Below, piece after piece: positions 28,186 to 62,901 of a stretch of 64,000 bases of DNA. The stretch comes from Isurus oxyrinchus. Lineage: Eukaryota. The stretch covers positions 3,224,001-3,288,000 of the forward strand of contig JANJGN010000052.1 of the NCBI GenBank assembly GCA_026770705.1, read 5' to 3'. Within the stretch, counting starts at the first letter, position 1. Every line of letters starts with the position of its first letter. The notes beneath the pieces are model-generated. The model saw only the letters and a program-made list of their open reading frames with translations, was not told where the DNA came from and ran no database searches. A program made the translations under genes and the position numbers.

Positions 28186-28399
28186 CAGTGAGAAGTTCGA
28201 GGATGTTTTGTGCTCTCAGCAAAACGTTTACCATGTGTGATCTGTCAGCTCATATTTGGGCAGCTGTAGTCATCAAGCTTCTCCATTGGCTCCGTGGGAT
28301 TAGACCCCTCCCCCTCATCTCAGAGGCTGAAGTGCAGGCGTTAGAGTTCCCAATACAGGTCTCTGGCCGTATGATACATGTTGACAATCCCCGATATCA

Positions 28400-29855
28400 T
28401 TACTGAAGGAGTGCTGCACTGTCAGGGGTATAGTACTGAGGGAGTGCTGCACTGTGTGAGGGTCAGTACTGAGTGAGTGCTGCACTATCAGAAGGTCAGT
28501 AATGTGGGATTGCTGCACTGTCAGAGGGCCAGTAGTGAAGGATTGCTGCAATGTCGGAGGGTCAGTACTGAGGGAGTGCTGCACTGTCAGAGGGACAGTA
28601 ATGTGGGAGTGCTGCACTGTCAGAGGGTCAGTAATGTGGGAGTTCTGCACTGGAAGAGGGTCATTAATAAGGGAGTGCTTCACTGTCAGGAGTATAGTAC
28701 TGAGGGAGTGCTGCACTGTGGGAGGGTCAGTACTGAGCGAGTGCTGCACTGTTAGTGGGGTCAGTACTGAGGGTCTGCTGCACTATCAGAGGGTCAGTAA
28801 TGTGGGAGTGCTGCACTGTCAGAGGGCCAGTAGTGAAGGAATGCTGCAATGTCGGAGGGTCAGTACTGAGGGAGTGCTGCACTGTCAGAGGGACAGTAAT
28901 GTAGGAGTGCTGCACTGTCAGAGGGTCAGTAATGTGGGAGTGCTGCACTGTCAGAGGGACAGTAATGTGGGAGTGTTGCACTGGAAGAGGGTCCTTAATG
29001 AGGGAGTGATGCACTGTCAGAGGATCAGTAATGAGGGAGTGCTGAACTGTCAGCGGGTCTGTACTGAGTGAGATTTGCACGGTCGGAGGGTCAGTATTGA
29101 GGGGGTGCCAGACTGTGGGAGGGTTAGTACTGAGGTAGAGAGGAGTGTGAGAAGATATCCTTTCATGGCAAAGTTTAACTGGAATTTATTTAAACAGAGA
29201 TTCTAGTACTGTGTGTTATTGCTAAAGAAAGGATATGAGGAACTAAGTCTAGTTCCCCTCAGCCTAAAAATAATGTTCTCCGATTTCAATGATTTAGCAT
29301 TGAAACCTCCCTCTTTGGGCATCAGTCTTGATTTAAAAAACTCGCACAGCACTGTGGGAGGGTGAGTACTGAGGATGTGCTGCACTGTGGGAGGGTGAGT
29401 ACTGAGGGAGTGCTGCACTGTGGGAGGGTGAGTACTGAGGGAGTGCTGCACTGTGGGAGGGTGAGTACTGAGGGAGTGCTGCACTGTGGGAGTGAGAGTA
29501 CTGAGGGAGTGCTGCACTGTGGGGGGGAGAATCCTGAGGGACAGCTGCATAGTGGGAGTTTGAATACTGAGGGAATGCTGCCCTGTCAGAGTGTCTGTAC
29601 CTAGGGAGTGCTGAACTGTCGGAAAGTCATTAGTGATGGAGGGGTACAGTATCAGAGGGTCAGTGTTCAGGGATTGTTGCACTGTCAGATTGTCAGCCAT
29701 GAGGGAATCCTGCACGGTCAGAAGGTCAATGATGACGGGGTGAAGCACTTGAAAAGGTTCAATAATGAGGTAGTGCAGCACTGTCAGAGGGACAGTAATG
29801 AGGGAGCGCTGAACTGACGGAGGGTCAGCACTGAGGAAACGCTGCACTGTCAGTT
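28400..29855 (+). repeat. 33-bp minisatellite arrays (28400-29140, 29345-29855) between genes B and A
   Basis: Visible tandem units. Confidence 0.9.
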
Positions 29856-30204
29856 CTGAGTGTGGTCTGCACTGTCCTAAGTGCATTCTAGGCACTGCCC
29901 AAGATTCCGCCTGATGTCCGTGTAACAACAACATCATGTACACGTCGAGAATATTTCTCACTGTGTCTGTGCAGCAAGACAGCTTTGGAATGGCACCACC
30001 ACTGGCAGCAGTGTGCAACTACAATGTGACATGTTTACATTGGAAGTTTCTATAATAAGGATGGGCACAGGAATTTATATAATAGAGAAAATGTGACAAC
30101 AAGAAGCTTTTCTTTGAGGCAAGAATTTGGCAGCAAAATAAGAATTTTAATCTATAAATATTTACAGAACAGGCTGAGCATTTTAATCACTTGTGTTAAT
30201 CAAT

Positions 30205-31197: not shown

Positions 31198-31337
31198 TCA
31201 ATCAGGCTGTCGACTTCCTTTCACTGTTTGTCTCTCCCAGACACAGACTCCAGCGATAGTGATAACCACAGCCACAAGGAATATCACAGCTCGTATTCCC
31301 AGGATCAGGATCACGTGCAGAATCTCTCCTCCACTGT
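31198..31337 (-). CDS. Gene B TM plus short tail exon with intramembrane Arg (activating-type receptor)
   Basis: tttctttctgtgtgttctctag acceptor, phase 1; DSGGEILHVILILGIRAVIFLVAVVITIAGVCVWERQTVKGSRQPD*; not in the ORF track. Confidence 0.8.
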
Positions 31338-32455: not shown

Positions 32456-32608
32456 ATTCCACAGTGATGGTTATGAAACCCTCCACTGCTCCATGTTCAT
32501 TCTCTGCCACACACTGATAGTCTCCAGTGTCCCTGGATGTAACATGAGGAATCACGAACCACAGCTCATTGTTGGAACTTGTTCTGTTCATTGTGATATT
32601 CAGATGTC
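32456..32608 (-). pseudogene. 5'-truncated Ig3-type exon in gene B, probably skipped
   Basis: MNRTSSNNELWFVIPHVTSRDTGDYQCVAENEHG..TVE|gtgagt retained; acceptor and B-strand Cys half are missing. Confidence 0.8.
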
Positions 32609-32931: not shown

Positions 32932-33228
32932 CTTGCACAGTTAGTATGAGGGTACGCTCCGATGAAACAGATGGATATCTCACTCTGCAGCTGAGAGTGT
33001 GTCCGTGGTGTTTGAGTGATGGGATCAGGGTCAGAACAGAAGTATAGGACAGAGTGACACCATGCTGAGTTACAGTGTTTGAGACTAATCCAGGTACGTC
33101 AGTGGGAGTGTCCCAGGTTAAGACAGATGCTGCTGTTCCATTGCACGTTGTGTTGAAGGTGCAGCTTACATCCACACGCTTTCCTGCAATAATTTCAGCA
33201 GGGAATATCGTGGGTTTATCTGTGAAAT
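32932..33228 (-). CDS. Gene B C2-set domain
   Basis: 297 nt, open; 7 aa differences from gene A d2 by eye. Confidence 0.9.
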
Positions 33229-33922
33229 CTAACAGAGAGGGAATGGATCCTTTTAGAGAAATATAACGTGAAGCATCAGTTCAAATAGAAATCACAGTCC
33301 CACAAGAGAAAGCACTTTTACAAGGATGATATCAGAACTGAGAGGTTACAATGATCAGGATAGAATTTCCTGCTTTGAGACTTTGGTGTTTCTGTCTCTC
33401 ATCTTAATACACGTTCACTCCGAGACACTTGAACTGATAATAGTGGGTGAGGGTGGAGGAGCAGACCAGAGTTTGGAGTGCACTACCCCATCATTCACTC
33501 AGCGATCTGGGCCATTTATTACTTTGCAATTTGTGGGAGCTTGCTGTGTGCAAATTGGCTGCTGTGTTTCTCACATTATAACAGTAAATACAATTCAGGA
33601 ATCAGCTCATTGGCTGTGAAGTGATTTTGTAATTGCTGAGGTGGTGAAAGGCCCTATAGAATTGGACAGAATTCGAGAGATCGATAGGAGTGGATAACCT
33701 GATAACATTGATGGACACAGTCAATATACTTAATCATTGATATTAAAGTGAGTATTAGAGGTTGCTTTAGGACTGAACTAGAAGCTATCATCAGGTTATT
33801 GAGAATCAGACAGTGTGTGATAATATGCTGTGTTTTGTGTTAATATGTAAACATCACAGATTGTGTTATTTCCCATTGAGTGTTGAATGTGAATTGTTGA
33901 GTAATTATAACACAGCACTTAC

Positions 33923-34291
33923 CAGAAACGTGAAGCTGGGTTACAGGGTAATAGTTATGGCTCGGACCATTGTCAAATTCTATTCGGAATAAATAAGGTC
34001 CTGCATCTTCCCGTCTGATGTTGTTTATAATCAGGGAACAGTCGCCATCTTTCAGGTCTCCAGACAGCCGGGTCCGATGGCGGAACTGTGGTAACTCGTG
34101 ACTGTGATCCTTGGAGTGAAAGGCAATGGGAGCCCAGGGAATCTGTTCCTCATTATTAAACCAGACTCCACCTCGTGGTTGGTTTCCCAGACACGATGGA
34201 TAACTGTAATGACATGGAATCTGTACACACGAACCTTCCTGAGCTGTCACCTCTCGTGGAGTGTCACCTTTCCAATCTTGTGACAGTCCAA
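33923..34291 (-). CDS. Gene B V-set exon V4
   Basis: 369 nt open, AG/GT intact; YLFRIE; extra Cys in YPSCL. Confidence 0.85.
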
Positions 34292-36228
34292 CTGGGGAGA
34301 GAAATCTCAATATTTATCTCTGGATGGCTTGTGGATCCACTAGACTCAAAATTTACAGATGAGGCTGAATTGGGGGGATGGTCAATACTGAGGAGAATGG
34401 CAACAAATTATTTTGGCAGGAAGAATAGAAAAACAGAATATTATTTAACTGGAGACAGGCTGCAGAATGCAGTACAGAGGGATCTGGGTGTCCTTGTACA
34501 TGAATCACAGAAAGTCAGCATTCAGGAACAACATGGAATGAGGAAGGCAAGTGGAATGTTGGCCTTTATTGCAATGGGATGGAGTATAAAAGGAGGGAAG
34601 TCTTGCAACAGCTGCACAGGGCGTTAGTGAGATTTTAACAGGATCATTGTGTGCAGGCAGTTCAGAGAAGCTACACTGGGCTGATTCCTGGGATTAAAGG
34701 GTTTGTCCTGTGAGGAAATGTTGAGCAGGTTGGGCCTGTATCCATTGGAGTTTAGAAGAATGAGGGGTGACCTTACTGAAACATATCCGATTCCGAGGGG
34801 GCTTGACAGGGTGGATGCTGGGAGGATGTTTCCCCCTCGTGGGGGAATCTAGAACCAGGGAGCACAGTTTTGGAATGAGGGCTCTCCCATTTAAGACTGA
34901 GATGAGGAGGAATTTCCTCTCTCAGAGGGGCGCTAGCCTGTTGAATTCTCTTCCCCAGACAGCAGTGGAGGCTGGGCCATTGAATAGACTCAAGGCTGAG
35001 TGAGGCAGGTTTTTGATCGACAAGGGAGTCAAGGGTTTGGGGGACAGGCAGGAAAATGGAGTTAAGGCAACAACCAGATCAGTGAGAGCATGCTCGAGGG
35101 GCCGAATGGCCTGCTCCTGTCCCTATTTCTTATGTTCCTACATTCTTACCATCTTAAAGTATTAAAGCTGCAGAATAAACATGCAAGTGACTGACCCGCT
35201 CGACCCACCTTCCATCTCGGGGTCCCATGGGGAAGACCCTTCCTGAGCCAGATCCACCAGCCAACATGGTCTGGATCTGAGCACAGGAGACACGGGGGGG
35301 AGTGACTAACAGGCTCCTTGTGACAGGCCCCGTCTGTCCAATGGCTGGCTTTCAGCTGCCAAGGCCAGAGTGGTCCTTGCTAAAACCGGCTCAGGACAGG
35401 CCAGGACCCCTGTGCAGACCCCCTCCAGCGCTGCAGCCTCTGTACAAACCCCTCATGCGCTTGTGGAGAGACACAAACAAGGCTGCACATTACCGAGGAG
35501 AATCCCCTCTACAGACTAAGGTGCTGACTCATCACCCTAAACTCAGCAAATGAGGAGGCTCTCGCTCGGTATCGGGGCTTGGCATTCGCTCAATAAAAAT
35601 AATCAAATGACATTTTGGTCAGAAATCTAAGGAGGTTGTACATTCCCTCAAAAATAAGACTCGATCTGGGGTCGAGAGTCAAAGGGCAACAACTTATATT
35701 TACACAACAACTTTAACATGACAAATCACCCCAAGGTGCTACACAGGAGCGTCATAAAACAAAGTATGTCACCCAGACACATGTGGAGATATTAGCGACA
35801 GCTGACCAGAAGAGGTCGGTGTTATGGAGAGACAGAGAGAAAGAGACAGAGAGAGAGAGAGAGAGAGGGAGAGGAAGAGGGAGAGGGAGAGATTTAGGGT
35901 AGGAACTCTAGGGTGGTGAAAGGCGCTGTAGAAATGTAAATCTTTCTTCTGTCGATATGTCAGACTTCAAGACAGGATTTGAGAGATTGATGGGAGTGGA
36001 TAAACTGATAACATTGATAGACACAGTCAACACATTTAATCATTGATATTAAAGTGAGTATTAGACATTGCTTTAGGACTGAACTGGAAGCCATCACCAG
36101 GTTATTGAGAATCAGACAGTGTGTTATAATAAGCTGTGTTTTGTGTTAATATGTAAACGTCACAGTTTGTGTTATTTCCCATTGAGTGTTGGATGTGAAT
36201 TGTTGAGTAATTATAACACAGCACTTAC

Positions 36229-36597
36229 CAGAAACGTGAAGCTGGGTTACAGGGTAATAGTTATGGCTCGGACCATTGTCAAATTCTATTCGGAATAAAT
36301 AAGGTCCTGCATCTTCCCGTCTGATGTTGTTTATAATCAGGGAACAGTCGCCATCTTTCAGGTCTCCAGACAGCCGGGTCCGATGGCGGAACCGTGGTAA
36401 CTCGTGACTGTGATCCTTGGAGTGAAAGGCAATGGGAGCCCAGGGAATCTGTTCCTCATTATTAAACCAGAGTCCACCTCGCGGTTGGTTTTCCAGACAC
36501 GATGGATAACTGTAATGACATGGAATCTGTACACAGGAACCTTCCTGCGCTGTCACCTCTCGTGGAGTGTCACATTTCCACTCTTGTGACAGTCCAA
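36229..36597 (-). CDS. Gene B V-set exon V3
   Basis: 369 nt open, AG/GT intact; YLFRIE; YPSCL and WKC. Confidence 0.85.
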
Positions 36598-38534
36598 CTG
36601 GGGATAGAAATCTCAATATTTATCTCTGGATGGTTTGTGGATCCACTAGACTCAAAATTTACAGATGAGGCTGAATTGGGGGGATGGTCAATACTGAGGA
36701 GAATGGCAACAAATTATTTTGGCAGGAAGAATAGAAAATCAGAATATTATTTAACTGGAGACAGGCTGCAGAATGCAGTACAGAGGGATCTGGGTGTCCT
36801 TGTACATGAATCACAGAAAGTCAGCATTCAGGAAAACCACGGAATGAGGAAGGCAAGTGGAATGTTGGCCTTTATTGCAAAGGGATGGAGTATAAAAGGA
36901 GGGAAGTCTTGCAACAGCTGCACAGGGCGTTAGTGAGATTTTAACAGGATCATTGTGTACAGGCAGTTCAGAGAAGCTTCACTGGGCTGATTCCTGGGAT
37001 TAAAGGGTTTGTCCTGTGAGGAAATGTTGAGCAGGTTGGGCCTGTATCCATTGGAGTTTAGAAGAATGAGGGGTGACCTTATTGAAACATATCCGATTCC
37101 GAGGGAGCTTGACAGGGTGGATGCTGGGAGGATGTTTCCCCCTCGTGGGGGAATCTTGAACCAGGGAGCACAGTTTCGGAATGAGGGCTCTCCCATTTAA
37201 GACTGAGATGAGGAGGAATTTCCTCTCTCAGAGGGGCGCTAGCCTGTGGAATTCTCTTCCCCAGAGAGCAGTGGAGGCTGGGCCATTGAATAGACTCAAG
37301 GCTGAGTGAGGCATGTTTTTGATCGACAAGGGAGTCAAGGGTTTGGGGGACAGGCAGGAAAATGGAGTTAAGGCCACAACCAGATCAGCGAGGGCAGGCT
37401 CGAGGGGCCGAATGGCCTTCGGCTGTCCCAATTTCTTATGTTCCTACATTCTTACCTTCTTAAAATATTAAAGCTGCAGAATAAACATGCAAGTGACTGA
37501 CCCGCTCGACCCACCTTCCATCTGGGGGTCCCATGGGGAGGACCCTTCCTGAGCCAGATCCACCAGCCAACATGGTCTGGATCCGAGCACAGGAGACACG
37601 GGGGGGAGTGACTAACAGGCTCCTTGTGACAGGCCCTGTCTGTCCAATGGCTGACTTTCAGCTGCCAAGGCCAGAGTGGTCCTTGCTAAAACCGGCTCAG
37701 GACAGGCCAGGACCCCTGTGCAGACCCCCTCCAGCGCTGCATCCTCTGTACAAATCCCTCATGCGCTTGTGGAGAGACACATACAAGGCTGTACATTACC
37801 GAGGAGAATCCCCTCTACGGACTAAGGGGCTGACTCATCACCCTAAACTCAGCAAATGAGGAGGCTCTCGCTCGGTATCGGGGCTTGGCATTCGCTCAAT
37901 AAAAATAATCAAATGACATTTTGGTCAGAAATCTAAGGAGGTTGTACATTCCCTCAAAAATAAGACTCGATCTGGGGTCGAGAGTCAAAGGGCAACAACT
38001 TATATTTTCACAACAACTTTAACATGACAAATCACCTCAAGGTGCTACACAGGAGCGTCATAAAACAAAGTATGTCACCCAGACACATGTGGAGATATTA
38101 GCGACAGCTGACCAGAAGAGGTCGGTGTTATGGAGAGACAGAGAGAAAGAGACAGAGAGAGAGAGAGAGAGAGGGAGAGGAAGAGGGAGAGGGAGAGGTT
38201 TAGGGTGGGAAGTCTAGGGTGGTGAAAGGCGCTGTAGAAATGTAAATCTTTCTTCTGTCGATATGTCAGACTTCAAGACAGGATTTGAGAGATTGATGGG
38301 AGTGGATAAACTGATAACATTGATAGACACAGTCAACACATTTAATCATTGATATTAAAGTGAGTATTAGAGGTTGCTTTAGGACTGAACTGGAAGCTAT
38401 CACCAGGTTATTGAGAATCAGACAGTGTGTTATAATAACCTGTGTTTTGTGTTACTATGTAAACGTCACAGTTTGTGTTATTTCCCATTGAGTGTTGAAT
38501 GTGAATTGTTGAGTAATTATAACACAGCACTTAC

Positions 38535-38903
38535 CAGAAACGTGAACCTGGGTTACAGGGTAATAGTTATGGCTCGGTCCATTGTCAAATTCTATTCTGA
38601 AAAAATAAGGTCCTGCATCTTCCCATGTGATGTTGTTTATAATCAGGGAACAGTCGCCATCTTTCAGGTCTCCAGACAGCCGGGTCCGATGGTGGAACCG
38701 TGGTAACTCGTGACTGTGATCCTTGGAGTGAAAGGCAATGGGAGCCCAGGGAATCTGTTTCTCATTATTAAACCAGAGTCCACCTCGCGGTTGGTTTTCC
38801 AGACACGATGGATAACTGTAATGACATGGAATCTGTACACACGAACCTTCCTGCGCTGTCACCTCTCGTGGAGTGTCACCTTTCCACTCTTGTGACAGTC
38901 CAA
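38535..38903 (-). CDS. Gene B V-set exon V2
   Basis: 369 nt open, AG/GT intact; YFFRIE; YPSCL. Confidence 0.85.
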
Positions 38904-40441
38904 CTGGGGAGAGAAATCTCAATATTTATCTCTGGATGGTTTGTGGATCCACTAGACTCAAAATTTACAGATGAGGCTGAATTGGGGGGATGGTCAATAC
39001 TGAGGAGAATGGCAACAAATTATTTTGGCAGGAAGAATAGAAAAACAGGATATTATTTAAATGGAGACAGGCTGCAGAATGCAGTACAGAGGGATCTGGG
39101 TGTCCTTGTACATGAATCACAGAAAGTCAGCATTCAGGAACACCACGGAATGAGGAAGGCAAGTGGAATGTTGGCCTTTATTGCAAAGGGATGGAGTATA
39201 AAAGGAGGGAAGTCTTGCAACAGCTGCACAGGGCGTTAGTGAGATTGTAACAGGATCATTGTGTACAGGCAGTTCAGAGAAGCTTCACTGGGCTGATTCC
39301 TGGGATTAAAGGGTTTGTCCTGTGAGGAAATGTTGAGCAGGTTGGGCCTGTATCCATTGGAGTTTAGAAGAATGAGGGGTGACCTTATTGAAACATATCC
39401 AATTCCGAGGGGGCTTGACAGGGTGGATGCTGGGAGGATGTTTCCCCCTCGTGGGGGAATCTAGAACCAGGGAGCACAGTTTCGGAATGAGGACTCTCCC
39501 ATTTAAGACTGAGATGAGGAGGAATTTCCTCTCTCAGAGGGGCGCTAGCCTGTGGAATTCTCTTCCCCAGAGAGCAGTGGAGGCTGGGCCATTGAATAGA
39601 CTCAAGGCTGAGTGAGGCAGGTTTTTGATCGACAAGGGAGTCAAGGGTTTGGGGGACAGGCAGGAAAATGGAGTTAAGGCCACAACCAGATCAGCGAGGG
39701 CAGGCTCGAGGGGCCGAATGGCCTGCTCCTGTCCCTATTTCTTATGTTCCTACATTCTTACCTTCTTAAAATATTAAAACTGCAGAATAAACATGCAAGT
39801 GACTGACCCGCTCGACCCACCTTCCATCTGGGGGTCCCATGGGGAGGACCCTTCCTGAGCCAGATCCACCAGCCAACATGGTCTGGATCCGAGCACAGGA
39901 GACACGGGGGGGAGTGACTAACAGGCTCCTTGTGACAGGCCCTGTCTGTCCAATGGCTGGCTTTCAGCTGCCAAGGCCAGAGTGGTCCTTGCTAAAACCA
40001 GCTCAGGACAGGCCAGGACCCCTGTGCAGACCCCCTCCAGCGCTGCAGCCTCTGTACAAATCCCTCATGCGCTTGTGGAGAGACACAAACAAGGCTGTAC
40101 ATTACCAAGGAGAATCCCCTCTACGGACTAAGGGGCTGACTCATCACCTTAAACTCAGCAAATGAGGAGGCTCTCGCTCGGTATCGAGGCTTGGCATTCG
40201 CTCAATAAAAATAATCAAATGACACTTTGGTCAGAAATCTAAGCAGGTTGTACATTCCCTCAAAAATAAGACTCAATCTGGGGTCGAGGGTCAAAGGGCA
40301 ACAACTTATATTTTCACAACAACTTTAACATGACAAATCACCCCAAGGTGCTACACAGGAGCGTCATAAAACAAAGTATGTCACCCAGACACATGTGGAG
40401 ATATTAGCGACAGCTGATCAGAAGGGATTGGTGTTATGGAG

Positions 40442-42050
40442 AAACTTAAAAGAGGGATGAAATGGTTAGTGAGAGAGAGAGAGTGAGTGTGAGGGATGGA
40501 GAGGGCTTAAGGGAGGGTATTACGGAGCTCGGTCCCCAGGCAGCTGAAGGCATGGCCACCGATGTTAGAGTGTTGAGATCGGGGGATGGTCAAGAGGCTG
40601 GAATTGGAGGAGCGCAGAGACCTCTGAAGGTTGGTGGGTCTGGAGGAGGTTACAGAGATAGCGAGGTTTGTAGTGATTGGAGGAGTTACAGCGATAGGGA
40701 AGCTTTTAGGGGCAGGAGGAAGTTACAGAAATAGGGAGGGTTGTAGCGGCTGGAAAAGTTAAGAGAGATTGTGAGAGTGTAGGGTCTGGAGGAGTTTGCA
40801 GAGGTAGGGAGGGTTGTAGTGACTGGGGCAGGTTACAGGGGCAGGGAAAGTTGTCGGGACTGGAGCAGGCTACAGAGATAGGGAAGCTTTTAGGGGCAGG
40901 AGGAAGTTACAGAAATAGGGAGGGTTGTAGTGGCTGGAGGAGGTTGCAGAGATTGGTAGGTTTGTTGGGCAGGATGAATTTACAGATATAGGGAAGCGGT
41001 AGAGGCTTGAAGAGGTTACAGAGAATGGGATGGTTGTAGGTACTGGAGGAGGAGGAGGAGATTACAGAGATAGTGAGGAAACAAAGATGAAAATTTGGAC
41101 ATTGAGACTTTGCTTGACCAGGAGCCAGTCTCGGTCATCGAGCAGAGCGGGTGATAAGGGAACGGGACTTGGTGTGAGTAAGGACGTGGTCAGCAGTTTT
41201 GAATGGCCTCAAGTTTATGGAGTGTAGAGCGTGTGTTGGAACAGTCGAGACTGGAGGTAATGAAGGCGTGGATGAGGGTTTCAGCAGCAGATGAGCTGAG
41301 ACAGGGTGACGTCGTGCGATGTTATGGAGGTGGAAATAGACGGTGTTAGTGAGGGCGCAGATAGGAGGCCGGAAGCTCATCTCAGGATCAAATGGGACAA
41401 CAAAGCTGTGAACAGATTGGCTTCAATCTCAGAGAGCTGCCAAGGAGAGGAATGGAGTTGGTAGCGAGGGAACAGAGTTTGGAGCAGGGAATGAAGACAA
41501 TGGCTTCAGTCTTTCCAATATTTAATTGGAGGAATTTCTGCCCATCCAGTACTGGATGTCGGATAAGCAGCCTGATAATTTAGCAGCAGTGGAAGAGTCG
41601 AGAGAGGTGGTGGTGAGGTAGAGCTGGGGATCCTCAGTGGACAGGTGAAAACTAACACTGTTCAGATGATGCTGCAAAGCCATTGCAAGTGATTCTCTGG
41701 CTACGATGAGATGGATAAGAATGGAGCCAGGGGAGAGCAGTCCCACCCAGCTGGACGACACTGGAGAGGTGTTGGAGGAGGATGGTGTGGTCGAGCGTGT
41801 CAAAGGCTGCAGACAGATCGAGAAGGACGAGGAGGGAAAGTTGACCTTTGTCACAGTCACACAGGATGCCATTTGTGACCTTGATAAGAGCTGTTTCAGC
41901 ACAGTGGCTGGGGTGGGAACCTGATTGGAGGGATTCAAACATGGAGTTCCGGGAAAGATGGGAACAGATTCGGGAGATGGAAACAGGTTGCAGGACTTTG
42001 GAGGGGAAAGAGAGGCTGGAGATGGGACGGGGGTTTACACGGACAGTGTG
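40442..42050 (-). mobile_element. L2-type LINE remnant
   Basis: ETALIKVTNGIL...LLVLLDLSAAFDTLDH; CLSDIQYWM; FHLHNIAR. Confidence 0.85.
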
Positions 42051-42306: not shown

Positions 42307-42681
42307 CAGAAACGTGAAGCTGGGTTTCAGGACGGTCGTTGTATCTATTCCTGTTGTCAAATTCTAGGCTGAATAAATAATATCCTGCATCTTCCCGTCT
42401 GATGTTGTTTATAATCAGGGAACAGTCGCCATCTTTCAGGTCTCCAGACAGCCGGGTCCGATGGTGGAACTGTGGTAACTCGCGATTATGATCCTTGGAG
42501 TGAAAGGCTATAGACCGTTCATTCCATTTTTCCCAATTCCTTCTCATATACCAGATTCCGACTGGTGATCTCGCTACTAAATATGATGGATAACTGTAAT
42601 TACATGGAATCTGTACACACGAACCTTCCTGCGCTGTCACCTCTCCTGGAGTGTCACCTTTCCACACTTGTGATAGTCCAA
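42307..42681 (-). CDS. Gene B V-set exon V1: divergent, essential Arg replaced by Ser
   Basis: 375 nt open, ccctag acceptor and gtaagt donor; GIWYMRRNWEKWNERSIAF; DAGYYLFSLE. Confidence 0.88.
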
Positions 42682-50381: not shown

Positions 50382-50421
50382 CTTGGAGAAGTGACAGGAG
50401 GAAGTAAGATTTCCCGATCAT
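50382..50421 (-). CDS. Gene B proximal leader exon
   Basis: MIGKSYFLLSLLQ+G|gtaata, same as the gene A leader. Confidence 0.85.
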
Positions 50422-52655: not shown

Positions 52656-52695
52656 CTTGGAGAAGTGACAGGAGGAAGTAAGATTTCCTGATCAT
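52656..52695 (-). CDS. Distal leader exon whose own V exon appears deleted
   Basis: MIRKSYFLLSLLQ+G|gtaata; its downstream intron matches the gene C leader-V intron. Confidence 0.75.
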
Positions 52696-54200: not shown

Positions 54201-55314
54201 TGCTCTCTTGTTCCTGTGTAGCAGGTTCGAGGGGGCTGAATGGCCTCCTCCTGTTCCTATTCAATGGGCAGTCAAAGTATGCGTCTGATTTGGGACCTCA
54301 AACCCAATTCTGTCCTCAGGACATTGACAGATGGAGAGACCAGTTACAGGTTAAGGCCGGAGGATTATTTATTTTCCCAATCTTTTATCCAAGAATGTCA
54401 TCAAACATAGAGCGGAACCAGGATCAAGGATGTTGGTCTCTGTGATCTGTAACACATCGCACAGTCCACCCATCCACTCAGCCATCAGGATGGATGCTAA
54501 TTGTACTCTCCAAGTGTAAAAGACTAAAATGGTGGTTTATTGCAGCTCTATCTCATTCTGTTATCAAAGCTGTCTCATCCATCCATGACATATTGAAGAA
54601 GATAAACCTGCAACCAATTTTTCACATCATAATTTCCAATGTTCATTGGCAACATCAATGTAAACATGTCACGCTGAAATGATGTCCTCCCACCAGTGGT
54701 GGCACTGTAGCACATCTGTTATCCTCTGAGCTGCAGAGAACTTCTCAAATCTCCAAACAAATTGTTTCCCTGTTTCCCAGATTCTTGTTTGTTTCGCTGT
54801 TTAACGATGAAGTGTAAAATCCAAATATATTTCTGAAAATACATTTGATTACAAAATGCTGAGTAAATTTTGCCAATCTCCTCTGCTCCAATTATCCACC
54901 GATCCTGCATTTCATGAAGTCTACACTGGCTGATGAATATTCTGTAAACACTGACAGACAGGAAGCTGAATAACAGAATGAAAATTAACTCATAATCACG
55001 GACACGGGATTGAATTTGTCCGTTCTGTCCTGGTACATCATCGAACGATATCTAAAGACATTTACAATCAGAATGGAGAGAAGGATGTTTCCAACAGTGA
55101 GGGACAATTCTGAAGGAGGATGTTCGAATTGAAACCCACAGACAATCATCCTGGATAGATCATTCCAAAGAAATTCCATCAGATTGTAACAAGAGGTTTA
55201 AATCTATTTCCTGGGAGTGAGTTCCTGTGGATATTAGGAAGGTAAATTGGAGTTTTGAATGATTCTCCCATTCTGTATTCTCCCCACACTGTGTGTGTCT
55301 CATTCTTGCTCAGT

Positions 55315-55431
55315 TTATAAATTCCCATAAACAGAATCCTCAGCAAATTCACAGTTTGCGTAAAGATCATCATCTGTATCAGGATTGACTCCGCGGTTAG
55401 ATTTCATTTCCAGATCCTTCTCATCTTTCTT
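55315..55431 (-). CDS. Terminal cytoplasmic exon with tandem Tyr motifs (DLYANC-x7-YGNL*), probably the gene C tail
   Basis: tttctgtttctattacag acceptor; phase 0 KKDEKDLEMKSNRGVNPDTDDDLYANCEFAEDSVYGNL*. Confidence 0.7.
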   Translation of the reverse strand, partial: KKDEKDLEMKSNRGVNPDTDDDLYANCEFAEDSVYGNL

Positions 55432-55752
55432 CTGTAATAGAAACAGAAATGATCAGAGTGACAATCAGAGTGATCAGTGTTTAGTATTATTGATCCAAAT
55501 CGAAAATTCCACCCACCATAGATACATTAATTATTGATACTGAACGGGGTTTGATTATTGATACTGAACGGGGTTTGATTATTGATACTGAACGGGGTTT
55601 GATTATTGATTCTGAACGGTGTTGGGTGTGAGTTTGGTTGGGTTTGGGAGTGACTGTATAAAACATTGCAGATACAGGACTGGAGCAACCATATCAATAA
55701 CCAGGCTACTGGAGCAGCTGAGAGGCTGGGGATCCTGTGGTGTGTGACTCAC

Positions 55753-55857
55753 CTGATTCCTCAAAGCCTAACCACGCTCACAGTTTTCATAAACAGGACC
55801 TCGATATTCATCAACACGGTGGTTCGATTTGATTCCTGCTTTCCCCTCACCTCTCTT
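55753..55857 (-). pseudogene. Paralogous cytoplasmic exon with YENC motif and an in-frame TAG
   Basis: ctctattacag acceptor and CAG|gtgagt donor; 105 nt, phase 0-0; KRGEGKAGIKSNHRVDEYRGPVYENCERG*ALRNQ. Confidence 0.65.
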
Positions 55858-56632
55858 CTGTAATAGAGATGGAAATGGACAGTGTGACAATCAACATGAT
55901 GTGTATTCGGTGTTGGGTTTGATTATTGGGGACAGAGTTCCAGATTTCCACTCCCCTTTGTGTGAAGAAGTGCTTCCTGACATCACCCCTGAACGGCCTG
56001 GCTCCAATCTGAAGTTCCAGCCCCCTTGTTCTGGACTCCACCCGACCTCCACCACCCACCCCCACCCGAGGGAATAGCTTCTCTCTATCGACCCTATCGA
56101 GTGTTTAATCATTTTGAATCTCTCAGTTAGATCCCTCCTTAATCTCCTAGACCTGAGGGAATATAATCGTAGACTGTGTGTAACCTGTCTGCACAATTTA
56201 CCCAGAAAGATGTTCTGTACAACAGACTTGAGTCTCACACCCAGATCTCAATAATCAGTAGAAATCTTTCAAAGGCATCAATCATTGGAATCTGTCTTTA
56301 TAAAGTCACAACATCAACAAAGGACGGTGTTGGTGGTGGAAGTGAATTCCAATCGTTCCGTTACTTACCCAGGACCTGTCCGACTGCTCGCCAGGGGAGG
56401 AACTGCTTGGGCTGAATGACCTCTTCCTGTGCTGCTCCCTCTGTGTATTTAATGAGAAAGGGTTGATGTGTCACTGTGAGTCAAATCAGGAATTGGGGAA
56501 CAATTGTGAAAACTCTTTCACTGAAACGTAGGGCCTTAGTGTTGTGTTGTAAGAAAACTGTTAACCCTTTGTGTCCTGACTCTGTGTCGTGATTCCTGTG
56601 TAAAGCTGAACAGTCGTTGAGCGAGTTTCAAT

Positions 56633-56693
56633 TCACTGCTCACTCCAGGTGTTGAGGTGGATCTTCTGATGGAGCAGATGTTGCTCAGTGCTC
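56633..56693 (-). CDS. Candidate first cytoplasmic exon of gene C
   Basis: ttttaag acceptor, in frame with TM: KSTEQHLLHQKIHLNTWSEQ*; alternative gtgagc donor at 56643. Confidence 0.4.
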
Positions 56694-57143
56694 CTTAAAA
56701 TTGTGAGAGACTGAACAACGTGTAGGAGGATGAGAGAGAGAATGAGAAGGAGAGCATTAGTGGAGATTGGGGAGAGAGTGAATGAGAGAGAGAATGAGAA
56801 GGAGAGTATTAGTGGAGATAAGAGAGAGTGAATTAGACACTGAAAATGGAAAGAGATTGCATTCACTAACAAAAGAATGTTTTCATTTATATATCCCCTT
56901 TCACATCCTCAGGAAGTCACAAGGTATTTTATGGTCCAGGTCAACACTGCCAGTTACAGGACTGAGTTGTGAAACATTGAGTGTTGGATGAGATGTTAAA
57001 CAATGAGTGAACATCAAAGCTCTTCAGGGGTTGTGAAGGGTTTTGGGTTGTGAAAGGTGTTATAGAAATGCAAGTTCTTTCTATAAGGGGAGAAGGTTGA
57101 AGAAAACATGTTCAAAAACAACCAATTAAACCTTCACACTTAC

Positions 57144-57240
57144 TTTCTCACACACTTGAAGATGAAGAATCCACTCAGTCCAACACTCAAACAGATTCCA
57201 GCTCCAAGCAATCCTGCTTTCCATTCATTGGAATCTCGCC
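57144..57240 (-). CDS. Gene C transmembrane exon
   Basis: 97 nt, paralog of the gene A TM; GRDSNEWKAGLLGAGICLSVGLSGFFIFKCVRK. Confidence 0.8.
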
Positions 57241-58299
57241 CTGTAAAATCAGCCAATGAATGACTCCGGTACAGTTTGAGAATGGTTCCCTGTGTACATG
57301 TAGTAATTCTGAACTTGTGAAGTGATATTGTCTATGCATGAAAGGTCTATACAAACAACATTTATCTATGTAATATTTATTGATAATATCCATGTACATG
57401 CAGGTTTCTATAAGGAGGATTCACATATAACAGAGGTGCCAAGCTGCTGAGGTGACACACAGGACTACATACATGCCAAAAAGCGGAAACAACATGCTAT
57501 CGACAGACAAAGCGATCCCACAACCAACAGGTCAGATCTAAGCTCTGCAGTCCTGCCACATCCAGTCATGAATGGTGATGGACAATTAAAGATCTAACAG
57601 GAGGAGGATGTTCCACAAATATCCCCATCCTTAATGATGGGGGAGCTCAGCACATCAGTGCAAACGACAAGGCTGAAGCATTGGCAACCATGTTCAGCCA
57701 GAAGTGCTGAGTGGATGCTCCATCTCGGCCTCCTCCAGAGGGTCCCAGCATCACAGACGTCAGCTTTCAGACAATTCGATTGACTCCACGTGACATCAGG
57801 AATCAGCTGATGATACTGGATACAGCAAAGGCTATTGGCCCTGGCAACAACCCAGCAACAGGAAATAATGTGGCTACAAGAGCGGGTCAGAGGCTGGGAA
57901 CTCTGCGGTGAATAACTCACCTCCTGACTCCCCAAAGCCTGTCCACCATCGACAAGGCACAAGTCAGGAGTGTGATGGAATAATCTCCAATTGCCTGAAT
58001 AAGTGCAGCTCCAACAACACTCAAGAAGCTCGACACCATCCAGGAGCAGCTTGTTTGATCGACAGCCCATCCACCAGCATAAACATTGATACCCTCCACC
58101 ACTGGCACACAATGGCAGCAGTGTGTGCACCATCTACAAGATGCACTGCAGCAACTCACCGAGGCTCCTTCGACAGCACCTTCCAAACTCTTAACCTCTT
58201 CCACCGAGACAGTTCCAAGTCAGTGAGGTGTTTGACTTGGAGGCGAACTTGAGGTGGTGGTCTGCCCTGTGACTTGGAACTATATCGGCCGTTCCTTCG

Positions 58300-59690
58300 G
58301 AGAATCAGTACTGATGGAGTGCTGCACTGTTGGAGGATCAGTACTGAGGGAGTGCTGCACTGTTGAAGGTTCTGTACTGATGGAGTGGTGCACTGTCGGA
58401 GGGTCAGTACTGAGGGAGAGCTGCACTGTCGGTGGGACAGTACTGAGGGAGTGTTGCACTGTCGGAGGATCAGTACTGAGGGAGTTCTGCACTGTGGGAG
58501 GGTCAGTATTTAGTGAGCTCTGCACTGTCGGAGGTTCAGTACTGAGGGTGTGCTGCACTGTCGGAGGGTCAGTACTGAGGGAGTGCTGCACTGTCGGAGG
58601 GTCAGTAATTAGGGAGCTCTGCACTGTTGGAGGGTCAGTACTGAGGGAGTGCTGCACTGTCGGAGCGTCAGTACTGAGGGAGTGCTGCACTGTCGGATGG
58701 TCAGTACTGAGGGAGTGCTGCACTGTCGGAGGGTCAGTAATTAGGGAGCTCTGCACTGTTGGATGGTCAGTACTGAGGTCGTGTTGCACTGTCGGAGGGT
58801 CAGTACTGAAAGAGTGCTGCACTGTCGGTGGGTCAGTAATTAGGGAGCTCTGCACTGTCGGAGGGTCAATACTGAGGGAGTGCTGCACTGTCAGAGTGTC
58901 GGTATTTAGGGAGTGCTGCACAGTCAGAGGGTCAGTAGTGAGGGAGTGCTGCACTGTTGGAGGGTCAGTACTGAGGGAGTGCTGCACTGTCGGAGGGTCA
59001 GTACTGAGGGAGTGCTGCACTGTTGGAGGGTCAGTACTGAGGGAGCTCTGCACTGTCAGAGGGTCAGTACTGAGTGAGTGCTGCACTGTTGGACGGTCAG
59101 TACTGAGGGAGGGCTGCACTTTTGGATGGTCAGTAATTAGGGAGTTCTGCACTGTTGGAGGGTCAGTACTGAGGGAGTGCTGCACTGTTGGAGGGTCAGT
59201 AATTAGGAGCTCTGCTCTGACGGAGGGTCAGTAGTGAGGGAGTGCTGCACTGTCGGAGGATCAGTACTGAGGGAGTGCTGCACTGTCGGAGGGTCAGCAC
59301 TGAGGGAGTGCTGCACTGTTGGAGGGTCAGTATTAACGCAGTGCTGCACTGTTGGAGGGTCAGTATTGAGGCAGTGCTGCACTGTTGGAGGGTCAGTACT
59401 TAGGGAATGCTGCACTGTCGGAGGGTCAGTACAGGAAGAGTGCTGCATTGTCGGAGCGTCAGTAATTAGGGAGCTCTGCACGGTTGGAGGGTCAGTACTG
59501 AGGAAGTGCTGCACTGTTGGAGGGTCAGTAATTAGGGAGCTCTGCACTGTTGGAGGGTCAGTACTGAGGGAGTGCTGCACTGTCGGAGGGTCAGTACTGA
59601 GTGAGTGCTGCACTGTCAGAGGGTCAGTACTGAGGGAGTGCTGCACTGTTGGAGGGTCAGTAATTAGGGAGCTCTGCACTGTTGGAGGGT
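58300..59690 (+). repeat. Large 33-bp minisatellite array, about 42 units
   Basis: Visible units; explains the 326-aa and 301-aa ORFs. Confidence 0.95.
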
Positions 59691-59691
59691 G

Positions 59692-60343
59692 ATAAGACCA
59701 TAAGACCACAAGACATCAGAGCAGAAGGAGGCCATTCGGCCAATCAACTCTGCTCCGCCATTCAATGACACCATGGCTGATCTGACAATCCTCAACTCCA
59801 CTTTCCTGCTTCTTCCCCATAGCCTTTGATTCCCTGACTGATTAAAAAACTGTGTATCTCAGCCTTGAATATAATTAATGACCCAGCCTCTGCAGCTCTC
59901 TGCGGTAAAGAATTCCACACATTCACTACCCTCTGAGAGAAGAAACTCCTCATCTCTGTCTTAAATGGGTGACCCCTTACTCTGAGATTATGCCCTCTGG
60001 TCCTAGACTCTCCCACAGGGGGAAACAACCTCTCAGCATCTACCCTGTCAAGCACCCTAAGAATCTTATATGTTTCAATAAGGTCAGCTCTCATTCTCCT
60101 AAACTCCAATGAGTACAGGCCCATCCTACTCAACCTCTCCTCATATGAAAATCCCTCATTTCTGGGATCAACCTAGTGAACCTTCTCTGGACTGCCTCCA
60201 ATGCCAGTACATCTTTCCTTAGATAAGGGAACCAAAACTGCTCACAGTGTTCTAGGTGTGGTCTAACTAGTGCCTTGTATAGTTTTAGCAAGGCTTCCCT
60301 ATTTTTATACTCCATTCCCTTTGAAATAAAGGCCAACATTCCA
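59692..60343 (-). mobile_element. CR1 3' fragment, duplicate of 2603-3255
   Basis: Near-identical sequence and the same junction with the satellite. Confidence 0.9.
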
Positions 60344-60569
60344 AATACTATGTGCATTTAAGTCAAGAGGCATTAATTTTGTCTTTTTATCATTTCCCCC
60401 CCTCTGACACTATTTGCTGATGTATTTTTATGTTTGGACACTGTCACACACTGGGTATCATTGCCAAAACAGCTATCCTGCAATGCTAATAAATCCTTTT
60501 GGTTTGTAACTGTACATATACCCTCTCCAGAAACATTCGCCCCACACTCTATTTAGTTTAAAGCCAATA

Positions 60570-61620
60570 GTGAGGTAGTGCAGCACTGTCAAAGGGTCAG
60601 TACTGAGGGAGTGCTGCATGTGGGAGGGTCAGTACTGAGGGAGTGCTGCACTGTGGGAGGGTCAGTACTGAGTGAGTGCTGCATGTGGGAGGGTCAGTAC
60701 TGAGGGAGTGCTGCATGTGGGAGGGTCAGTACTGAGGGAGTGCTGCATGTGGGAGGGTCAGTACTGAGTGAGTGCTGCATGTGGGAGGGTCAGTACTGAG
60801 GGAGTGCTGCATGTGGGAGGGTCAGTACTGAGGGAGTGCTGCAGATGGGAGGGTCTGTACTGAGGGAGTGCTGCACTGTGGGAGGGTCAGTACTGAGTGA
60901 GTGCTGCATGTGGGAGGGTCAGTACTGAGGGAATGCTGCATGTGGGAGGGTCAGTACTGAGGGAGTGCTGCATGTGGGAGGGTCAGTACTGAGGGAGTGC
61001 TGCAGGTGGGAGGGTCAGTACTGAGGGAGTGCTGCACTGTCAGAGGTTCAGTACTGTGGAAGTGCTGCACTGTGTGTGGGGGGGAGATTCAGTACTGTGG
61101 AAGTGCAGCACTGTTTGAAGGTCTCGACCGAGGATCTGTTGTATTTTCAGAGGGTCAGTCAGGAGGGAGATATGAAATGTTGGATTTTCAGTCCTGAGGG
61201 AGCACTGCAGAGTTGGAGGGTCAGCAGTGAAGGAGTGCTGCACTGTCGGAGAGTCAGTACTGAGGGATTGTTTCATTATTGGAGGGTCAGAACTGAGGCA
61301 GTGCTGCACTGTCAGAGGGTCAGTACTGAGGGAGTGCTGCAATGTCAGAGGATCAGTACTGAGGGAGAGCTGCAATTTCAGCAGGTCAGTACTGAGGGAG
61401 TGCTGCACTGTCAGAGGGTCAGTACTGAGGGAGTGCTACACTGTCAGAGGGTCAGTGCTGAGGGAGTTCTGCACTGTTGGAGGGTCAGTACTGAGGGATT
61501 GCTGCACTGTTGGAGGATCAGTACTGAGGGAGTGCTGCACTGTCAGGCGGTCAGTACTGAGGGAGTGCTGCACTGTCAGGCGGTCAGTACTGAGGGAGTG
61601 CTGCACTGTCAGGGGGTTAG
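60570..61620 (+). repeat. 33-bp minisatellite array including a 31-bp variant block (~60600-61020)
   Basis: ctgcatgtggg variant lacking 2 nt. Confidence 0.92.
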
Positions 61621-61835
61621 TATATTGTGAATGATGCTCTGCTCTATCAGCTTCTTGGCTGGAAAAAAAAGCTCCAGTGTTAATGTTCAGAAACTGTCAT
61701 TAACTGTTTTCTGGTCAGTGTTTTTCCCTAAACTACAGATGATCTGGTTCTCATCAGAATACCTTTCTATGGGATCCTGCTGTGCACAATATAGACTGTT
61801 CCAGAGAATGTAGAATGAAGGATGTCTGTACTTAC

Positions 61836-62532: not shown

Positions 62533-62901
62533 CAGAAACCTGAAGCTGGGTTACAGGCTAGTAGTTGTAACTATTACTGCTGTCAAATTCTATCCTGAAG
62601 AAATAAGGTCCTGCATCTTCTCATCTGATGTTGTTTATAATCAGGGAACAGTCGCCATCTTTCAGGTCTCCAGACAGCCGGGTCCGATGGTGGAACCGTG
62701 GTAACTCGTGACTGTGATCCTTGGAGTGAAAGGCAATGGGAGATCCAGGAATCTGATTCTCATTATTAAACCAGACTCCGACTCGTGGTTGGCTTTCCAA
62801 ATGTGATGGATAACTGTAATGACATGGAATCTGTACACACGAATCTTCCTGCGCTGTCACCTCTCGTGGAGTGTCACCTTTCCACTCTTGTGACAGTCCA
62901 A
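62533..62901 (-). pseudogene. Gene C V-set exon with two in-frame stops
   Basis: TGA at 62621-62623 and TAG at 62558-62560; otherwise colinear at 369 nt with YFFRIE and intact splice sites. Confidence 0.92.

What the first reader, a model, noticed from the sequence alone, without database searches (positions are those of the whole stretch)
34191..38805. Internal V exons gained a B-C loop Cys that could disulfide-link tandem V domains
Known: the first Cys of the Siglec V CxxIPC motif bonds to a B-C loop Cys of the next domain (here SCTFNTTC, +6). Seen: V2-V4, the exons that would sit behind another V, have IPCHYSYPSC (+7; codons 38803-5, 36497-9, 34191-3), while the N-terminal V exons have His or Tyr there (A YPAHL, B-V1 YPSYL, C YPSHL). 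Inference: the new Cys mimics the C2 partner, favouring a chained multi-V protein. Caveat: it is a single mutation that preceded the triplication and could instead mediate dimerisation.
Basis: inference. Interest (0 to 1): 0.7.

Follow-up and report, generated by a model that had tools for sequence, protein, structure and literature searches.

The report
Cysteine-stapled multi-domain shark Siglec receptor
A shark immune-receptor gene has four sugar-binding-type domains in a row, and the three inner ones carry an extra cysteine, typical of inner copies across sharks, that likely bonds each domain to the one before it, a link that similar receptors of other vertebrates appear to lack.

Summary
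Observation confirmed. The three exons are V2-V4 of an intact Siglec-like gene (signal-V1-V2-V3-V4-C2-TM with Arg; 652 codons, open). The Cys is not a local mutation. In 1.4 Mb of this gene cluster plus the window, 48 of 49 V exons behind another V carry it, against 4 of 55 behind a signal exon. In database models of sharks and rays the counts are 38 of 49 against 1 of 92. It is the most position-diagnostic residue, although inner and first V exons are about 90% alike and do not form separate clades. Only 1 of 18 tandem-V junctions outside cartilaginous fish has any such Cys, and primate Siglec-12 has none. Pairing each V's spare Cys with the next V's loop Cys leaves one ectodomain Cys unpaired instead of seven. 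The bond itself is not shown: no S-S distance could be obtained, an AlphaFold V1-V2 model did not take the Siglec V-C2 orientation, and no V-V splice joint was listed in RNA contigs. Verdict: likely a V-V version of the Siglec inter-domain disulfide (about 0.65), a new variant of a known kind. The scan noted the same idea before on other DNA of this genome.

The parts
50382..50421 (-). Signal-peptide exon (coding part, MIGKSYFLLSLLQ, phase-1 GT donor) of gene B
   Evidence: nearest signal exon upstream of V1; signal-to-V joints of this family in RNA contigs of 3 of 4 runs
52656..52695 (-). Second, upstream signal-type exon copy; use unknown
42307..42681 (-). V1 exon, first V: spare Cys at 42619-17, Tyr at +7, Ser in place of the F-strand Arg (42370-68)
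38535..38903 (-). V2 exon: spare Cys 38841-39, B-strand Cys 38826-24, +7 loop Cys 38805-03, F-strand Arg 38598-96
36229..36597 (-). V3 exon: spare Cys 36535-33, +7 loop Cys 36499-97, Arg 36292-90, plus a private extra Cys in the A strand (36574-72)
33923..34291 (-). V4 exon: spare Cys 34229-27, +7 loop Cys 34193-91, Arg 33986-84
32932..33228 (-). C2-set exon with SCTFNTTC; +6 Cys at 33145-43 is the usual Siglec partner of the preceding V
   Evidence: V-to-C2 and C2-to-TM joints in RNA contigs; +6 Cys in 58 of 58 such exons
32457..32608 (-). 3' half of a second C2-type exon; a remnant that is skipped in the C2-to-TM joint
   Evidence: joint 31337/32932 in 3 of 4 runs
31198..31337 (-). Transmembrane exon with an intramembrane Arg (31293-91), short tail and stop
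33665..40505 (.). Tandem triplication of a ~2.3-kb unit, each copy holding one inner V exon (96-97% identity)
   Evidence: self-comparison

Best explanation
This gene encodes, if its exons are spliced in order, a shark Siglec-like receptor with four V domains in a row, and the extra loop cysteine of V2-V4 likely bonds to the spare cysteine of the V domain before it. Shown: exon order, open frame, the cysteines, and the tie of the loop Cys to inner position. Known: in Siglecs the first Cys of the V CxxIPC motif bonds to a B-C loop Cys of the next (C2) domain. Inferred: when V exons were put in tandem early in cartilaginous fish, each upstream V would have been left with a free thiol; an inner-type exon with a Cys at the top of its B-C loop supplies the partner (35-172, 160-295, 283-418, then the usual 406-536 to C2). 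Unequal crossing-over then copies this exon to give chains of up to ten V exons. Inferred: the staples stiffen the V-V joints into a rod that displays several Arg-bearing sialic-acid sites, here on a likely activating (Arg-in-membrane) anchor.
For: Position rule in this genome: 48 of 49 V-after-V vs 4 of 55 V-after-signal exons; intact only, 45 of 46 vs 3 of 42. None of 29 first V exons that head a chain has it; all 4 exceptions are single-V genes whose upstream intron matches first-type exons. Database models: 38 of 49 inner vs 1 of 92 first V, in 10 genera of sharks and rays. +7 is the most position-diagnostic column in both sets (0.91 vs next 0.67; 0.77 vs 0.51). With +7 masked, Cys-bearing V domains are not one clade (13 changes, 3 forced; AU p 0.0007, sharks only 0.02), so the Cys follows position more than descent. 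Every V followed by a V keeps its spare Cys (49 of 49). Cys book-keeping of the 652-residue product leaves only Cys270 unpaired in the ectodomain. 29 of 49 inner exons have replaced the signal-peptide end VGLS by xxPS, 0 of 55 first exons, which fits a linker role. In the AlphaFold model the Cys follows the B strand as the C2 Cys does, and both joints have about six residues between strands. V2-C2 matches CD33 (Z 19.4, 206 residues, 3.1 A). The V-C2 bond matters for function in Siglec-6 (PMC10122656, passages).
Against: No S-S distance was measured. A V1-V2 model of a close relative (pTM 0.52, 19 sequences) aligned to CD33, MAG and Siglec-5 over one domain only (111-120 residues; two-domain rmsd 14-16 A), unlike V2-C2. 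The V-V linker had pLDDT under 50 in the other model. No V-V joint was listed in RNA contigs of six runs, while signal-V, V-C2 and C2-TM joints were (tables were cut and contigs drop variants). A search for short proteins across the joint found none. Database multi-V proteins are gene models; I did not verify their joints. Tandem V domains exist without the Cys: 11 of 49 inner V in sharks and rays (2 of 3 joints in both ray proteins) and 17 of 18 joints elsewhere, so the bond is not needed for a chain. Three intact genes carry the Cys on a first V. Paralogs are not independent, and one 10-V array supplies 9 of the 49. dN/dS among inner exons is 0.67, weaker purifying selection than among similar first exons (0.35).
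Confidence: 0.65

Rival explanations
1. The V domains are chained, but the loop Cys forms an inter-chain bond that dimerises or cross-links receptors side by side.
For: B-C loop apex is exposed; the V1-V2 model did not take the Siglec V-C2 pose; three intact single-V genes carry the Cys at the tip, where no upstream partner exists.
Against: It gives no reason for the Cys to be absent from 29 of 29 chain-heading V exons, and it leaves every upstream spare Cys (49 of 49 kept) unpaired.
Confidence: 0.13
2. The Cys is an old passenger of the inner-exon lineage: it stays free or is neutral, and travels with the 5' part of the inner exon during duplication.
For: Tandem V Siglecs of other vertebrates do without it (17 of 18); other residues also mark inner exons (xxPS start, F-G loop GPSH); paralogs are not independent; the tree has few columns and is poorly resolved.
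Against: It is kept from rays to lamniform sharks while overall identity falls to 48%; it tracks position better than any other column; free surface cysteines are generally disfavoured in ectodomains (established knowledge, recalled).
Confidence: 0.12
3. The V exons are alternatives: the signal exon is spliced to one of them, so each protein has one V and the Cys serves something else.
For: All V exons are phase 1/1 and 18 of 49 inner exons, V2-V4 among them, keep a VGLS start; no V-V joint was listed in RNA contigs.
Against: 29 of 49 inner exons have xxPS, mostly with a charged residue where the signal peptidase -3 site would be (rule recalled); gene models of many species chain the V exons; the absence of joints is weak because the tables were cut.
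Confidence: 0.1

Closest known systems
Siglec V-to-C2 inter-domain disulfide (CD33, Siglec-5, Siglec-6, MAG)
   Same: V domain with CxxIPC, F-strand Arg, C2 with a +6 loop Cys; best sequence and fold matches are Siglec-5, -7, -8, CD33, MAG. Siglec-6 Cys46-Cys172 is such a bond in an AlphaFold model and either mutation abolished binding (PMC10122656, passages).
   Different: Here the proposed acceptor is in a V domain (+7), repeated along a chain; no solved V-V case was found among the hits.
Primate Siglec-12 (two V-set domains; PMC6288428, passages)
   Same: Tandem V domains in front of C2; both V keep the spare Cys (monkey protein P0188).
   Different: Its second V has no B-C loop Cys. The shark family has 1-10 V exons per gene, hundreds of genes, and keeps the Arg on inner domains (44 of 46) more often than on chain-heading ones (14 of 25).
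Paired Siglecs (Siglec-5/14, -11/16; PMC13358205, passage)
   Same: Near-identical V domains on two kinds of anchor: 29 Arg-type and 32 other membrane exons in the tiles.
   Different: Arg in the membrane here; mammalian activating Siglecs use Lys with DAP12 (recalled). The adaptor is untested.
pIgR/JAML tandem V receptors
   Same: Tandem V domains; appear in fold searches.
   Different: Weaker sequence match than Siglecs (pIgR E about 1e-9 over 41 residues, JAML 2e-7); two-domain rmsd over 13 A; no sign of the same cysteines was tested.

Membership tests
Siglec | N-terminal V-set domain of Siglec type followed by C2-set domains | tested here: met
   Best solved relatives are Siglecs (E 4e-15); V2-C2 model matches CD33 at Z 19.4; four V instead of one
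Siglec | Intra-domain B-E Cys pair plus a spare Cys in CxxIPC | tested here: met
   All four V exons
Siglec | Partner Cys in the B-C loop of the first C2 | tested here: met
   SCTFNTTC; 58 of 58 exons in the tiles
Siglec | Essential F-strand Arg in the N-terminal V | tested here: not met
   V1 has Ser (42370-68); V2-V4 have Arg. Gene B is therefore called Siglec-like; gene A's single V has the Arg
Siglec | Binds sialic acid | not testable with these tools
   needs a binding assay
V-to-V inter-domain disulfide (proposed) | Loop Cys confined to V domains that follow another V | tested here: met
   48 of 49 vs 4 of 55; 38 of 49 vs 1 of 92
V-to-V inter-domain disulfide (proposed) | V exons spliced to one another | tested here: inconclusive
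   Frames and splice sites allow it and gene models have it; no joint listed in RNA contigs
V-to-V inter-domain disulfide (proposed) | The two sulfurs are within bonding distance | tested here: inconclusive
   No coordinates returned; low-confidence V1-V2 model did not match the V-C2 pose
Activating paired receptor | Charged membrane residue, short tail without ITIM | tested here: met
   Arg622, about 15-residue tail without Tyr; adaptor binding not tested

The most novel reading that the evidence does not exclude
Sharks built a modular, self-stapling V exon: each copy brings an acceptor Cys at its top and a donor Cys at its base, so duplication alone makes covalently braced rods of 2 to 10 sialic-acid-binding domains, on both activating and inhibitory anchors, in a family of several hundred genes. 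Domain number would then tune avidity and reach for dense sialoglycans, a multivalent design not described for other Siglecs.
Probability: 0.3. Interest if true: 0.7.

Novelty: new variant of a known kind. Interest (0 to 1): 0.48.

Why it matters
Siglecs are known as one-site lectins whose V-to-C2 disulfide fixes the head. A V-to-V version would show how a conserved structural bond was redeployed to let the binding domain itself be multiplied, and it gives a sequence mark that tells inner from first V exons in a very large, largely undescribed shark receptor family. It is directly testable with one recombinant protein and two point mutants.

Tried and rejected
Local single mutation or assembly duplicate: rejected; 231 exact Cys exons genome-wide, V2-V4 differ by 2-4%, Cys in 10 genera. 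One clade of Cys exons: rejected by AU test on a thinned set of 61 of 160 rows; the full tree is the quick one. Complex prediction of V1 with V2 was not available, so there is no result. Structure prediction returns no coordinates, so S-S distances could not be read. RNA contigs: no V-V joint listed (15 of 256 joints shown; 2 joints, 13 loose ends not shown); the runs are only guessed to be RNA and X1/X2 also cover introns. Search for short database proteins across the V-V joint: 8 hits, none across it. Literature: seven full-text searches (listings and abstract starts) showed no paper on shark tandem-V Siglecs or a V-V disulfide; the library lacks most subscription papers, and I did not see the original Siglec-12 papers. 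No supplements were read. Scan notes near this place: none.

Full report
Observation. On the minus strand three 369-nt exons (38903-38535, 36597-36229, 34291-33923) read CVQIPCHYSYPSC, with TGT at the stated places. The other V exons of the window have Tyr or His there. All have AG/GT ends and phase 1/1. The three lie on a ~2.3-kb unit repeated three times at 96-97% identity.

The gene. A signal exon (50421-50382), V1 (42681-42307), V2-V4, one C2 exon (33228-32932) and a membrane exon (from 31337) give one open frame of 652 codons. The membrane helix holds an Arg and the tail is short. Half of a second C2 exon remains at 32608-32457 and is skipped in the C2-to-membrane joint seen in RNA contigs. 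The closest solved relatives are Siglec-5, -7, -8, CD33 and MAG; the closest database proteins are shark 'Siglec-like' models at up to 95% identity. V1 has Ser at the essential Arg; V2-V4 have Arg.

The family. The window lies in a very large cluster: 1052 first-look candidates for the V exon, 590 and 231 exact matches to a general and a Cys-specific pattern, 305 exact signal exons. These are lower bounds for each pattern, and the assembly may hold both haplotypes. I read 1.40 Mb in tiles (two contiguous blocks, one block chosen for a long array, two small pieces) plus the window. Of 108 V exons, 49 follow another V and 48 have the Cys; 55 follow a signal exon and 4 have it; 4 could not be classed and none has it. 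The four exceptions are single-V genes whose upstream intron is of the first-exon type, as recombination that drops the leading V would give (inference); one of them is broken. Genes carry 1 to 5 V exons, one carries 10, with both kinds of membrane exon. Paralogs are not independent, so the Fisher p of 2e-23 overstates the case.

Other species. In 105 database proteins I found 160 V domains; 12 were partial and unreadable. The Cys is in 38 of 49 inner, 1 of 92 first and 0 of 7 otherwise placed domains; the one first-V case begins with an inner-type start. It occurs in ten genera, from basking and white sharks to catsharks, bamboo and whale sharks, a sawshark and two rays. The 11 misses are three domains of one long model that may merge several genes (inference), four other shark domains, and V2 and V4 of both rays. 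Outside cartilaginous fish, 1 of 18 V-V junctions with a spare upstream Cys (16 proteins; among the 10 named ones a monkey Siglec-12, lynx, turtles, frogs, bony fish) has any Cys in that loop, at +4.

Position, not just descent. Inner exons are 90% identical to one class of first exons of this genome, more than window V3 is to inner domains of other shark orders (72-79%), yet +7 is the most diagnostic column in both data sets. With +7 masked the Cys-bearing domains need 13 changes on a poorly resolved quick tree, and one clade is rejected on a thinned set. The simplest reading is exchange of sequence between exon classes with the Cys kept where a V lies upstream (inference). A second mark agrees: 29 of 49 inner exons start xxPS instead of VGLS, the end of the signal peptide, against 0 of 55 first exons.

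Mechanism. In Siglecs the spare V Cys bonds to a loop Cys of the next domain; for Siglec-6 this is modelled as Cys46-Cys172 and both mutants lost binding (PMC10122656, passages). In gene B the ectodomain has 19 cysteines: five intra-domain pairs, 406-536 to C2, three proposed V-V pairs and one private Cys in V3. Without V-V bonds seven would be free. In the AlphaFold model of a two-V relative (pLDDT 82, pTM 0.62) the loop Cys sits in a short turn after strand B, and V-V and V-C2 joints have similar length, but the V-V linker is under pLDDT 50. V2-C2 superposes on CD33.

Results against. A second model, V1-V2 alone (pTM 0.52), matched Siglec structures over one domain only: the predicted V-V pose is not the V-C2 pose. 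The model is weak and gives no distances, so this is inconclusive but not supportive. RNA contigs show signal-V, V-C2 and C2-membrane joints, and contigs matching the Cys codon, but no listed V-V joint. Chains without the Cys exist. Selection on inner exons is modest (dN/dS 0.67).

Novelty. Two-V Siglec-12 is known (PMC6288428, passages). Seven searches of the held library found nothing on this shark family's tandem V domains or a V-V bond; passages of PMC13358205, PMC8455134 and PMC13220637 added nothing on it. The scan's own note e1-9575185 reached the same idea on another piece of this genome; I had formed my reading before seeing it, and it is not independent support.

Verdict. A V-to-V disulfide is the best explanation (0.65) but rests on distribution and cysteine book-keeping, not on geometry or chemistry. 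New variant of a known kind; interest 0.48.

Noticed in passing
G000:C52:2280275-2299574 (L152-L153): One gene with ten V exons in a row (nine inner, all with the Cys, one broken); its first V has Phe in place of the B-strand Cys, as does a paralog at 2417014.
   Followed up: partly
window 42370-42368 and tiles: The essential Arg is lost mainly in chain-heading V exons (Arg in 14 of 25) and kept in inner ones (44 of 46) and single ones (16 of 17): the reverse of what a one-site lectin would suggest.
   Followed up: partly
P0011, P0015 (rays): V2 and V4 lack the +7 Cys but carry another Cys after the C strand (KDEC); its partner is unknown.
   Followed up: no
window 36574-36572: V3 has a private Gly-to-Cys change in the A strand (WKCDT), also seen in one Mustelus domain (P0004); it would be unpaired.
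   Followed up: no
window 32457-32608: The same half C2 exon precedes the Arg-type membrane exon in most such genes of the tiles; an old shared remnant.
   Followed up: partly
window 52656-52695 and 50382-50421: Two signal-type exons 2.3 kb apart upstream of gene B; such doublets recur in the cluster.
   Followed up: no
window 55288-57237 and 62533-62901: Gene C: V exon with two stops, then a C2 exon, a membrane-like exon and Tyr-bearing tail exons; probably a pseudogene of the inhibitory type.
   Followed up: no
G000:C34:15138066 and 15186038 (L169, L170): A few family members lie on a 19.9-Mb contig away from the main cluster; both V exons read lack the Cys.
   Followed up: partly
window 28397-29876 and 58297-61645: Long minisatellites with a ~33-base unit between and inside the genes.
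   Followed up: no
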